Assembly (NCBI RefSeq): GCF_044704955.1
Contig: NC_091980.1
Span: forward strand, 130,138,001 to 130,202,000
Source of the DNA: Pristiophorus japonicus
Taxonomy: Eukaryota
DNA: 64,000 nt
Direction: 5' to 3'
The notes below the pieces were generated by a model. That model was given only the letters and a program-made list of their open reading frames with translations. It was not told the origin of the DNA and did no database searches. This document shows positions 4,319 to 60,660 of the stretch, one piece after another (position 1 is the first letter of the stretch; every line of letters begins with the position of its first letter). Both the position numbers and the translations under genes were made by a program.

Positions 4319-4914
4319 AAAGCAGAGCAGGATGAGTGGAGCAATGGCCTGGAGGCCATGCAGAGAGCTCTGCAGATGGAGAAGAATGTGAACCAGAGTC
4401 TGTTGGATCTGCACAAACTCTCCACTGGGAGCACTGACCCTCATGTAAGTTCCTAATGCTTCAATGTAGGCTTTTGGGTAAGTTGCTGTGCTTGAACTTA
4501 ATTTAAAAAGATCTGTGCCCAATAGCTTTGTGTTGGTCTATTTTTGGGGTTCGATATTGTAAATGTGTCTGATCCCAGCACCTTTTTTGTATAGCAAGTT
4601 TTCATCTAAATGATGCAGTAATTCCATTGCACCAATTTCAATTGCACCACTGAACTATCCTCAGTCCAAGAGGACTAAAATTCAAACTCTCAAGCAGTAA
4701 GCTCCAATGTTCCTTGATATCTGCTACTGGCCATAACTCCTTTCTGTTTCTCCTTCAGTTGTGTGACTTCCTGGAGACCCACTACTTGGATGAACAAGTG
4801 AAGATGATCAAGAAGCTTGGAGATCACATCACCAACCTGAAGAGACTGGGAGCCCCTGAGAATGGCCTGGGAGAGTACTTGTTTGACAAGCACACCCTGG
4901 GGGAGAGTGACTGA
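4319..4914 (+). CDS. Ferritin (H/M-type) copy A1, 3' part: exon 3 4319-4444, exon 4 4759-4914 (stop TGA); exons 1-2 lie upstream of the window
   Basis: Exon 3 [42 protein letters not shown]; exon 4 [55 protein letters not shown] splice sites intact. AATAAA at 5030-5035. Confidence 0.93.
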
Positions 4915-5179
4915 AGCTTCTGATCAGTACTTGTGTTTATACAAGGTGTGTGAGACTCTGTCCTACATAGAATGGTGGCTTTGTACAGGCTGAGACCTGG
5001 GCTCTTGATGTGAAATGTAATCAACTGTAAATAAACTGTTCAATATTGAGCTGGGTTTTATCTCCTTGCAAGTTAGTGGTTGCTTATTTTCCATTTACCA
5101 TAACTTGTTTGCAGCACAAGTATTGCACTCGGTTATGCAACAATCATACATTGGCCTCCTGTGCTGTAACCACTCAGCC

Positions 5180-57652: not shown

Positions 57653-60600
57653 ATGGCTTCTCAAGTGCGTCAGAATTACCACCAGGATTGTGAGGATGCT
57701 GTCAACAAGCAGATCAACATGGAGCTCTATTCCTCCTATGTTTATCTCTCTATGGTGAGTTTTGTATTTTTTGCCACTTTACAATGGAGACTATGTAATG
57801 TGAATTTATGAAATCCTGTGCTATACCTAGCCCACCTATTTCTCTCTTTCTGCCCACCTGCCCCAAGCCCTGAATCTATGCAGTGAGTTCACTTTAAAGC
57901 TGTAATATGGTACAATTTATCTTAATTTGTATTTATTAACATTCTCTCTGTTCCTGGCAGCAGCTGTATTTGATTATCTTGATTCTTTTTTCCTGGGATC
58001 TTGAGCTTGATGTAGTTTATTTGGAATACATTCTGCACACAATGCAAGGAATTCAAAATTTGTATCCTCATTCTAAATCACTGCATTGATTTTCCTTACC
58101 TTGCTGGTTCAATGGGTGATGTCATAAAAATAAATCTATGCCATTTCGGAGGGATGTCAGGAAGTATTCTTTTCCCACCAGTGTGGTGGAAATCTGAAAC
58201 GCTTTCTTTCCCAGCCATCCCTCACCTCCACAGGAGGAGGATGGGAAGAAAGTGTTACAAATGTTTCTGCTTCCCTCCTGTTCCGAGTATTTCTTGCCAT
58301 TAATTTTAAGTACCAGTTTGTATCCTTCTGTCTTTCCTCTAACTTTTTGCAATCATTAACTATTTGCTTTATCATCAATTGTCTGTACTCAGTGGACTCT
58401 CCCTTAACCCCTGTGACCTTCACCAAGCACCCTCAAATTCTGAGGGGTTCTCATAACTTTTATTCTGTGGTCTCTGGTTCTCAACAATGCTTTGATTTGT
58501 GTAGACTGTGCCAAATTAATGCTGCTTGTGGTAGTTTGAGTTCCTTGGCATGAATGTAGCCAGTAAAACTTGGTTAGTTTTTTTTCTTTTTTTTTTTATG
58601 ATATGAATTCTGCACTGTGGCTAGATCTAGTTTAGGCAGTTGCTTTTACTGCCTCTCCACTAGCCTATACAAAATGTATTTGGGTTAATAAACAATTATT
58701 ATTGGAGCATGCTTCTGGTGACCAGGGTATAAATCTTGTGGCAATTCCTTCACTAATTTCCAGAGCTACAATGAATATTGGGTGCCAAGATTAAAGTTCC
58801 AGTTTTAAGCATGTTCAATCAAAGCTGAGTTGATGATTATGGAGTGATGCAGCACAGGAGGCCATTCAGTCCATTGTGCCTTGCTGAATGTTGGGTGGAG
58901 CGATACAACTCTGTTTCCATAGCCTACAAATGTTTCTAAATCACGTAAGAGGATGAGACTGGGGAATTTGTAATGGGCAACATAGAGATGGCAGAAAATC
59001 TGAACAAATATCTTGTATCTGTTTTGACAGTAGAGGACAGTAACAACATTCCAATGGTGGATAGTCAAGAGGCTATTGGGGGGAGGTACTTAATGCAATA
59101 ACTATCACCTGAGGAAGTAGAACTCAGTAAGATAATTGGGCTCAATGCAGAGATATGTCCTGATGGCTTGCATCCTAGGGTCTTGAGAAGCAGGGATTGT
59201 GGATGTATTGGTTATAATTTACCAAAATTCCCTGGATTCTGGGGAGGTCCCAGCAGATTGGAAAGCTGCAAATGTAATGCACCTATTTTTTTTTTAAAAG
59301 GAAGAAACTTTTGACCAGTTAGCCTAATAACATCGCAGGGACATTTGGAAAAGCAAAATTTGATCAGGCAGAGTCGGCATGGATTTGTGAGGGGAAGTCG
59401 TGTTTGACAAATTTGCTGGAGTTCTTTGAGGATGTATGGAACAGGGTGGGTAAAGGTAAACCAGTGGCTGTGGTGTATTTGGACCTCCATAAGGTATTTG
59501 ACAAGGTGACACAAAAGATTACTGCACAAGATGAAAGTTCACAGGCTTTGGGGGTAATATATTAGCATGGATAGAGGATTGGCTAAAGAACCGAGTCAGG
59601 ATAAATGGTTCATTCTCTGGTTGGCAACCAGTATCTAGTAGAGTGCCGCAAGGATCAGTGCTGGGACCCCAACTATTTACAATCTATATTACACTCTGTT
59701 CCTCCATCCAAGTTGGTTACGTAGCCTAGTTTGTTCCTCCCAAATTTGCGTCAGTAATGTGTGAGGAGAACACACTTCTGCAAAAGGACATAGGCAGGCT
59801 AAGTGAGTGGGCAAAAATTTGACTGTTGGAAAGTGAGGTCATGCACTTCAGCATAACAAGAATCAAAGAGCAAATGTTTATTGAAGTGGAGCAAGATTGC
59901 AAAGTGCCACAGTACAGCAGGAGCGGAGGAGGGTGGGGTGGGTGCCTCTACTCATTTGGAATTCAGAAGAATGAGGTGAACTTATTGAACTGTATAAGAT
60001 TGAGGGGGCTTGAATTGGTGGATACAGAGAGGATGTTTTCACTGATGGGGAGACTACAACTAGAGGGCATGATCTTAAAATAAGGGGCTTCCCATTTAGA
60101 ACTGAAATATCTTGAGGGTTGTCAATCTGTGGAATTCACTGCCTGAGCTGTGGAAAGCTGAGACATTGAATAAATTTAAGACTGTAATACAGTTTCTTAA
60201 ATGCTAAGGGGTTATGTGGGGATGAGTCCATGATCAGATCAGCCATAATCTTAAATGGTGGAACAGGCTCTGAGCTGTGTGGTCTACTCCTGTTCATATT
60301 TCTCATGTTAGGTTTCCCTATGGCTGGAGCTGAGATTATCCAATGTATTTACCAGGTTAATTGAGTAGGTTCTAGTTTCCATAAATATACATACAAGTTC
60401 AGTGAGACTGAGCCCTTAAAAAAAGTAAGAAAAATGAGTTTGGCTTCATGTACAGTGCCCATGCTGATGAGTCTGCCATGCAATAATCAACTACTCTTCT
60501 GATCCCTCCGCAGTCCTTCTACTTTGACCGGGATGATGTTGCCCTGCGTCACTTTGCTGAGTTCTTCAAGGAGCAGTCACATGAGGAACGTGAGCATGCT

Positions 60601-60660
60601 GAGAAACTGATGGAATTCCAGAATCGGCGTGGAGGCCGAATCATCTTGGCAGACATCAAG
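57653..60660 (+). CDS. Ferritin (H/M-type) copy A7, 5' part: exon 1 57653-57754, exon 2 60514-60660; exons 3-4 expected beyond the window
   Basis: [34 protein letters not shown] / [49 protein letters not shown]; intact splice sites. Confidence 0.93.
58945..60310 (+). mobile_element. Decayed CR1 LINE in A7 intron 1
   Basis: Aligns with 21820-23250. Confidence 0.8.

What the first reader, a model, noticed from the sequence alone, without database searches (positions are those of the whole stretch)
4319..60660. Expanded tandem array of at least seven spliced ferritin genes in three structural types
Seen: seven same-strand 4-exon copies in the order A-B-A-B-C-B-A. A and B differ in promoter, intron 1 (about 2.8 vs 1.4 kb) and 3' UTR, and were duplicated together as a ~17-20 kb pair. 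Two copies are complete and intact, two are open but cut by the window edges, and three are broken. Known: most vertebrates have a few ferritin loci, and extra mammalian copies are mostly intronless. Inference: this is a birth-and-death array of H/M-type chains that probably extends on both sides and could build heteropolymers from paired A and B subunits.
Basis: partly seen in the sequence, partly recalled or inferred. Interest (0 to 1): 0.72.

Follow-up and report, generated by a model that had tools for sequence, protein, structure and literature searches.

The report
Shark tandem ferritin gene array
This is a real run of seven iron-storage (ferritin) genes, part of a very large ferritin cluster already reported in other sharks; its less ordinary features are alternating gene types with near-identical proteins, no detectable iron-control element and a changed recycling site.

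Summary
Copy 3 encodes a protein identical to an annotated Pristiophorus japonicus ferritin; 95 distinct array proteins of that species were seen. Added here: the array is its own elasmobranch clade, shares a contig with PTPRH in 13 of 13 species (as tetrapod L chains mostly do, shark fth1a 0 of 5); both intact copies keep the ferroxidase ligands, so A/B is not an H/L pair; A and B differ two- to threefold less at silent sites than in intron 3, suggesting exon conversion; no IRE was found; the NCOA4-binding Arg23 is kept in 0 of 207 array proteins. Best reading: a dosage array of IRE-independent, active ferritin, probably an ovarian iron store, turning over by birth-and-death. The scan's earlier notes held nothing on it. 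New member of a known kind.

The parts
1..4200 (-). LTR retroelement (Ty3/Gypsy-like, label by protease-RT order and LTR, partly recalled) inside intron 2 of copy 1; broken frames
   Evidence: Aspartyl-protease and weak RVT_1 hits; LTR about 3955-4200 aligns with 61114-61332; 39-45 stops per frame
4319..4914 (+). Copy 1, type A: exons 3 (4319-4444) and 4 (4759-4914), open; AATAAA at 5030; exons 1-2 lie beyond the window edge
9827..9833 (+). TATA-like box of copy 2 (TAGAAAT; TATAAAT in c4), 76 nt before the ATG; no IRE between it and the ATG
9903..12490 (+). Copy 2, type B, intact, 176 aa; exons 9903-10004, 11435-11581, 11825-11950, 12335-12490; AATAAA at 12605
   Evidence: relatives' contigs join at all three GT..AG introns
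20439..20445 (+). TATA box of copy 3 (TATAAAT), 77 nt before the ATG; no IRE downstream
20516..24804 (+). Copy 3, type A, intact, 177 aa; exons 20516-20617, 23439-23585, 24213-24338, 24646-24804; AATAAA at 24911
   Evidence: 100% identical to P0157, P. japonicus UniRef100_UPI00398E390A
28661..31223 (+). Copy 4, type B, broken: exons 1-3 open, exon-4 acceptor and first 36 nt deleted
37591..40355 (+). Copy 5, type C (A-like non-coding DNA, B-like residues in exon 1), probably broken: 2-nt loss at exon-4 start, Glu61 to Val, no AATAAA; an automatic model (P0051) keeps the frame by adding six residues
45501..48105 (+). Copy 6, type B, broken: TAA in exon 2, exon-4 acceptor TG, 16-nt duplication in exon 4
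57653..60660 (+). Copy 7, type A: exons 1 (57653-57754) and 2 (60514-60660), open; exons 3-4 beyond the edge
61114..64000 (-). Second copy of the LTR retroelement, in intron 2 of copy 7; 90.4% identical to 1-2481
4203..16758 (+). Duplicated block (3' end of A plus whole B unit), matching 24095-35537
   Evidence: 93.3% and 90.9%
8201..24076 (+). Duplicated block (B unit plus 5' part of A), matching 43854-61137, interrupted there by a LINE at 51344-53080
   Evidence: 87.5%, 93.7%, 91.0%

Best explanation
The window is a 64-kb slice of the shark ferritin mega-cluster. Its genes are an elasmobranch paralogue group separate from the single fth1a gene and lying on the PTPRH chromosome, where tetrapod L-chain genes also lie. 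Shown: copies multiply as two-gene blocks, some decay, intact ones keep the ferroxidase centre and three-fold channel, and no IRE is detectable. Inferred: unequal crossing-over makes and removes copies; gene conversion limited to exons keeps A, B and C proteins alike while their promoters and introns diverge; many transcription units without iron-dependent translational control give a very large dose of iron-oxidising cages in one tissue, most likely the ovary, to bank iron for large yolky eggs and keep it from doing oxidative harm. Odds: membership of the published cluster about 0.9; exon conversion about 0.65; ovarian iron store about 0.55.
For: c3 = P0157 at 100%; 95 distinct P. japonicus proteins and 134 from other sharks, 90% clusters of 47, 138, 180, 127, 69 members. 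Array clade 100/99 with two sawfish proteins, apart from fth1a; array plus elasmobranch fth1a rejected, p-AU 0.014. Six published ligands (PMC7557750) present in c2, c3 and 164 of 203 array proteins. No Rfam match at E<=1 in 64 kb, no IRE family upstream of c2 or c3, no canonical IRE by pattern. Four-fold sites A vs B differ 11-18% against 36-38% in intron 3 (Fisher p 0.017, 0.012, 0.0013), no such gap within a type (p 0.15-1.0). Proteins group by shark lineage, not by length class. Ovary-specific expression of the Greenland shark cluster; ferritin transcripts abundant in zebrafish and coho follicles.
Against: No expression data for this species or these copies; orthology to the Greenland shark cluster is inferred, no Somniosus sequence was compared. 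PMC13214024 finds some copies transcribed in fin and blood. The sister group of the array is unresolved: H, L and M are all allowed (p-AU 0.40, 0.32, 0.18). The IRE scans had no positive control and the transcription start is only inferred from a TATA-like box. Low silent divergence between types could reflect codon or splice constraint (28-55 sites a pair), and A/B residues stay linked across exons in P. japonicus proteins, so conversion is not frequent. Synteny rests on equal contig lengths of listed cluster members, not on coordinates.
Confidence: 0.7

Rival explanations
1. Copy number is mostly a by-product: a repeat-rich, recombination-prone locus gains and loses copies with weak selection on number; a few copies do the work.
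For: 3 of 5 fully seen copies are broken; dN/dS 0.45-0.73 in most pairs with a broken copy; retroelements lie in introns and between genes.
Against: The expansion is shared by 13 species with contig data and called at least 250 My old; open copies show dN/dS 0.13-0.33; 164 of 203 proteins keep the six ligands. It can coexist with the best reading.
Confidence: 0.15
2. The array serves somatic protection against lipid peroxidation and ferroptosis, with flexible iron release through ferritinophagy, and is tied to longevity (hypothesis of PMC13214024).
For: Some copies transcribed in fin and blood; tandem fthl27 in hadal snailfish lowers ROS in transfected cells (PMC10746142).
Against: At least 95 distinct proteins are annotated in the sawshark, more than the 59 that the paper calls the highest count; the paper itself notes high numbers in shorter-lived sharks; ovary-specific expression; Arg23 needed for NCOA4 binding in human FTH1 is kept in 0 of 207 array proteins.
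Confidence: 0.1
3. A and B are complementary subunits kept in pairs to build H/L-like mixed cages.
For: Non-coding types alternate strictly; A- and B-type residues are linked across exons, e.g. K11 with C26 p 7e-13; the Greenland preprint counts 104 'FTL' and 118 'FTH1' in one cluster.
Against: Both types keep all ferroxidase ligands; differences are a few conservative changes; pairing follows from block duplication; A-like outnumber B-like 58 to 20 among 95 proteins seen, a biased sample; in other sharks proteins group by species.
Confidence: 0.07
4. The repeats are an assembly artefact.
For: No genome or long reads could be checked.
Against: Blocks are 87-94% identical with private deletions, insertions and stops, far from haplotype-level identity (inference); the same expansion is annotated in 13 other species and in two independent Greenland shark assemblies.
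Confidence: 0.02

Closest known systems
Shark ferritin clusters: Sahm et al., bioRxiv 10.1101/2024.09.09.611499 (passages read) and Yang et al., PNAS 2026, PMC13214024 (passages, part 1 of Discussion, supplement term search)
   Same: Tandem, multi-exon ferritin copies in large clusters, shared between distant sharks, with truncated members; very probably the same locus.
   Different: Another species (0 hits for Pristiophorus, japonicus, sawshark in the PNAS main text). The passages seen do not describe alternating gene types, exon homogenisation, IRE status, Met144 or the NCOA4 cleft. Their labels 'FTL/FTH1' and 'FTH1b' fit poorly with a single, ferroxidase-competent clade linked to PTPRH (my inference; their figures and copies were not seen).
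Automatic RefSeq/UniRef models 'ferritin heavy chain B-like / oocyte isoform-like / higher subunit-like' of Pristiophorus japonicus and 12 other sharks
   Same: c3 is identical to P0157; c5 exons 1-3 are in P0051.
   Different: Names are best-hit labels; c5 is modelled as coding although probably broken.
Tandem fthl27 array of hadal snailfish (PMC10746142, passages)
   Same: Tandem expansion of an H-like ferritin (14 copies against 3) in a fish.
   Different: Recent, species-specific, high in most tissues; the shark array is older and far larger.
Vertebrate FTH1 / shark fth1a
   Same: Ferroxidase ligands, channel residues, about 71% identity.
   Different: Separate clade and contig; Arg23 and Ser/Ala144 kept in fth1a (12 of 12) but Lys23 and Met144 in the array; FTH1 has a 5' IRE (established knowledge), none found here.
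M-type ferritins of fish, frogs and turtles; tetrapod L chains (including amphibian 'light chain, oocyte isoform' models)
   Same: 176 aa; L chains share a contig with PTPRH in 18 of 23 species; a hydrophobic residue at 144 (Leu in 16 of 19 L chains, Met in 209 array proteins).
   Different: L chains lack the ferroxidase ligands; the tree does not join the array to M or L with support.

Membership tests
Vertebrate cytosolic ferritin | Ferritin domain PF00210 over the whole chain | tested here: met
   P0157, E 2.6e-40, residues 16-154; solved human H and frog M chains E<1e-84
Vertebrate cytosolic ferritin | Four coding exons, three GT..AG introns | tested here: met
   contigs of related organisms join at the three introns
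Vertebrate cytosolic ferritin | Three-fold channel His118, Cys130, Asp131, Glu134 (positions recalled) | tested here: met
   c2, c3 and six other array proteins
Vertebrate cytosolic ferritin | Assembles as a 24-mer and stores iron | not testable with these tools
   inferred from 71-72% identity to H chains
FTH1 (H chain) orthologue | Ferroxidase ligands E27, Y34, E62, H65, E107, Q141 | tested here: met
FTH1 (H chain) orthologue | 5' UTR iron-responsive element | tested here: not met
   no positive control, start site inferred
FTH1 (H chain) orthologue | Groups with shark fth1a and shares its contig | tested here: not met
   p-AU 0.014 for array plus elasmobranch fth1a; fth1a with PTPRH 0 of 5, array 13 of 13; array as sister to all H chains is not rejected (p 0.40)
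FTH1 (H chain) orthologue | Arg23 of the NCOA4 cleft | tested here: not met
   0 of 207 array proteins, 12 of 12 chondrichthyan fth1a
FTL (L chain) | Ferroxidase centre absent | tested here: not met
   centre present
FTL (L chain) | Lies on the PTPRH chromosome | tested here: met
   13 of 13 sharks and sawfish; L chains 18 of 23; no contig data for P. japonicus itself
M-type ferritin | One clade with fish, frog and turtle M chains | tested here: inconclusive
   not in the best tree, not rejected (p-AU 0.18)
Published shark ferritin cluster ('FTH1b') | Tandem multi-exon copies, many per genome, in a clade across sharks | tested here: met
Published shark ferritin cluster ('FTH1b') | Direct orthology to the Somniosus copies | not tested
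   no Somniosus protein came up
Published shark ferritin cluster ('FTH1b') | Ovary-specific expression | not testable with these tools
   runs are coded, of other organisms, tissue not on record

The most novel reading that the evidence does not exclude
The shark cluster is a third vertebrate ferritin lineage at the L/M locus that kept its ferroxidase centre but left both ordinary controls: it has no IRE, so it is made regardless of cell iron, and its NCOA4 cleft is altered (Lys for Arg23 in all types, Asp/His for Ala19 in type A, Cys for Tyr30 in type B), so it resists ferritinophagy. Hundreds of genes with two or three alternating promoter types, held alike by exon conversion, would then stock a long-lived iron reserve in the oocyte, the opposite of the published ferritinophagy-longevity idea.
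Probability: 0.25. Interest if true: 0.62.

Novelty: new member of a known kind. Interest (0 to 1): 0.36.

Why it matters
The array itself is no longer news. It matters because two papers attach meaning to it (ovary expression; ferroptosis and longevity) without, in the passages seen, looking at how the genes are built. The sawshark slice shows that the count is not special to the Greenland shark, that the copies are one active type rather than H plus L, and that two control points (IRE, NCOA4 site) look changed. These are cheap to test and would decide between an egg iron store and somatic protection. The PTPRH linkage also bears on where the vertebrate light chain came from.

Tried and rejected
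No whole genome was held, so flanks, total copy number and a possible 61.5-kb higher-order repeat (c1 to c7) could not be checked. Run search: no RNA holder listed on record, shares 0.05-0.09; the four runs were laid and are other organisms, so they were used only for splice joints, not for level or tissue. First residue table was off by one and was redone; A/B positions beyond exon 1 were wrong and redone. The c3-c4 intron-3 value (51%) is inflated by the c4 deletion and was left out of the quoted range. A first impression that the array is L-like by sequence was not upheld: majority residues shared only with L 1, only with H 5, only with M 5; AU tests do not pick a sister. Tree left out 5 of 43 rows (two odd gene models, one unnamed, two degenerate); tree used 42 hand-picked rows, LG+G4 without mixture, long-branch warnings, bootstrap not settled. 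CpG decay does not explain most coding differences (8 of 66 variable columns). Promoter repeat search showed nothing of note. Rfam hits upstream of c2 and c3 are all far below gathering score. No fold or complex job was sent: the fold is known and no shark NCOA4 sequence was in hand. Paper searches without a further description of the shark array; the 2025 preprint 10.1101/2025.02.19.638963 has 0 hits for ferritin; PMC5568229, PMC11719527, PMC13701976 (passages) added nothing beyond a reference. The library lacks most subscription papers. Earlier scan notes: none on this.
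Full report
Observation. A self-comparison of the window (no N) shows long direct blocks at 87-94% identity. Copies 2 and 3 have four exons of 102, 147, 126 and 156/159 nt with GT..AG introns and give 176 and 177 residues. Copy 4 has lost the exon-4 acceptor and 36 nt; copy 5 has a 2-nt loss at the start of exon 4, a Glu61 to Val change and no AATAAA; copy 6 has a stop in exon 2, a TG acceptor and a 16-nt duplication. Copies 1 and 7 are open as far as seen, but each has an antisense LTR retroelement in intron 2 (1-4200 and 61114-64000, 90.4% alike). 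Their junctions map about 23 nt apart on the empty site of copy 3, so one duplicated insertion and two independent ones are both possible.

Types and blocks. Within a type, promoters, introns and 3' UTRs are 85-97% identical; between A and B, introns 2-3 and UTR are 57-75% and intron 1 and the promoter do not align usefully. Type C is nearer to A in non-coding DNA (promoter 72-76%, intron 2 83%, UTR 83-86%), yet has B-like residues in exon 1. The 3' end of c1 with c2 matches the 3' end of c3 with c4; c2 with the 5' part of c3 matches c6 with c7. All six promoters seen share a proximal core: a reversed CCAAT, a TGTCA(A/C)TCA word and a TATA-like box 62-88 nt before the ATG.

Origin. Exon 4 of c1 found 341 proteins, 120 listed, led by Pristiophorus japonicus and other sharks. 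The c3 product is identical to P0157 of that species, and exons 1-3 of c5 are in P0051. Listing only part of ten clusters gave, 95 distinct P. japonicus proteins and 134 from other sharks; these are lower bounds and may hold a few isoforms. No genome was held. Contigs from four public runs of three other organisms (RNA only guessed) cover the exons of c2 and join at all three predicted introns; this supports the gene structure in relatives, not expression of these copies.

Prior art. bioRxiv 10.1101/2024.09.09.611499 (passages; supplements not seen) reports 155 'FTL' and 179 'FTH1' copies in the Greenland shark, about 80% in three clusters syntenic with the white shark, the largest expressed specifically in ovary. 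PMC13214024 (passages, first part of the Discussion, term search of supplements; figures not seen) reports 59 tandem 'FTH1b' copies, more copies in sharks than in rays, some transcribed in fin and blood, and a link to ferroptosis and longevity offered as hypothesis; it does not name the sawshark. A 14-copy tandem fthl27 array is known in hadal snailfish (PMC10746142, passages).

Which ferritin. Trees put the array proteins, with two sawfish proteins, in one clade (100/99), apart from the single fth1a of sharks, skate and chimaera. Array plus elasmobranch fth1a is rejected (p-AU 0.014), but array plus H, plus L or plus M are all allowed (0.40, 0.32, 0.18). Synteny says more. A fused gene model (P0095) joins an array-type ferritin to a receptor phosphatase whose relatives are named PTPRH. 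This is indirect, and P. japonicus entries carry no contig data. It suggests the L/M side of the family, not FTH1.

Protein. Both intact copies keep Glu27, Tyr34, Glu62, His65, Glu107, Gln141 (list from PMC7557750, passage), Glu61 and the channel residues; 164 of 203 near-full array proteins keep all six, and 1 of 203 has two or more substitutions. There is no L-like class to pair with. Position 144 is Met in 87 of 92 P. japonicus proteins against Ser/Ala in H and M and mostly Leu in L; that it tunes oxidation rate is recalled. Human FTH1 needs Arg23, Asn22 and a small residue at 19 to bind NCOA4 (PMC4592949, PMC11076521, passages). Arg23 is kept in 0 of 207 array proteins (Lys 187, Gln 16) and 12 of 12 chondrichthyan fth1a; Ala19 is Asp in 157 of 207; type B has Cys for Tyr30. 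Against over-reading: Lys may stand in for Arg, and shark fth1a itself has Ser22 and Leu82, so human rules may not carry over.

Regulation. Rfam found nothing at E<=1 in the window and no IRE family upstream of c2 or c3; a pattern search found no canonical IRE on the + strand. There was no positive control and the start site is inferred. If right, output is set by transcription and gene number.

Evolution. dN/dS is 0.13 for both A-A pairs, 0.19-0.33 for A-B pairs and 0.45-0.73 for B-B and C pairs, all of which include a broken copy. Four-fold sites of A and B differ at 11-18% while intron 3 differs at 36-38% (p 0.017, 0.012, 0.0013); within a type the two do not differ (p 0.15-1.0). Array proteins group by shark lineage. 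Exon-limited conversion explains this best, but it is not frequent: type-marking residues remain linked across exons among 92 P. japonicus proteins, which sort into 58 A-like, 20 B-like, 12 C-like, 3 other and 2 without exon 1 of 95.

How it most likely works. Unequal crossing-over copies two-gene blocks; some copies die; conversion and purifying selection keep one active protein type; many IRE-free genes give a high dose in one tissue. The tissue is probably ovary (ferritin transcripts are abundant in zebrafish and coho follicles, PMC1488847 and PMC2262088, passages), for an iron store in large yolky eggs. The last step is inference. Rivals are neutral copy-number drift, somatic ferroptosis protection, H/L-like pairing and assembly error, in falling order.

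Verdict. Observation confirmed; interpretation partly supported; new member of a known kind; interest 0.36. Ten paper searches showed no account of the alternating types, IRE loss or NCOA4 cleft, but the library lacks most subscription papers, and supplements and figures that I could not see may bear on this. The boldest reading, an IRE-free, ferritinophagy-resistant oocyte ferritin at the light-chain locus, has about one chance in four.

Noticed in passing
window 1-4200 and 61114-64000: Two copies of one LTR retroelement sit antisense in intron 2 of two type-A genes, 61.5 kb apart and about 23 nt apart on the empty site of copy 3; they may mark a higher-order repeat of six genes or an insertion hot spot.
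   Followed up: partly
window 23950-24190: Intron 2 of type A (627 nt against 243 in B) holds an extra stretch with a TATA-like word that looks like an older solo LTR; the younger element inserted into it in c1 and c7. Label by eye only.
   Followed up: no
window 51344-53080: A young LINE (560-residue open frame 51301-52983, RVT_1 E 3e-30) is inserted downstream of c6 and absent from the matching blocks after c2 and c4.
   Followed up: partly
window 36936-36942: The block after c4 follows the A-upstream sequence at 94% up to 36936, inside a LINE fragment, then switches to the C-upstream sequence (75% to A): a likely unequal-crossover junction.
   Followed up: partly
window 9760-9835, 20365-20445 and the other four promoters: Shared core CTGATTGG ... 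TGTCA(A/C)TCA ... TA(T/C/G)AAA in all six promoters; it recalls a PBX/PREP (TALE) site next to an NF-Y box, a pairing known from maternal zebrafish promoters (recalled, not tested).
   Followed up: no
P0267 (Pristis pectinata) and P0521 (Callorhinchus milii): A sawfish array-clade protein has lost Glu62, His65 and Gln141, an independent L-like decay; a chimaera 'lower subunit' is a separate long branch.
   Followed up: partly
P0400, P0403, P0408 against P0591, P0588, P0584: Marsupial proteins named 'ferritin heavy polypeptide-like 17' or 'heavy chain A-like' group with M-type chains (P0266) and share contig lengths with PTPRH in three species; the FTHL17 name may be wrong.
   Followed up: partly
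Heptranchias perlo entries: Array-type ferritins lie on two large contigs (20.3 and 29.8 Mb) and a 0.9-Mb one, so a second cluster exists off the PTPRH contig.
   Followed up: no
window 41400-42960: A further decayed gag/protease-like retroelement fragment on the + strand between c5 and c6; no Pfam hit for the one frame tested.
   Followed up: partly
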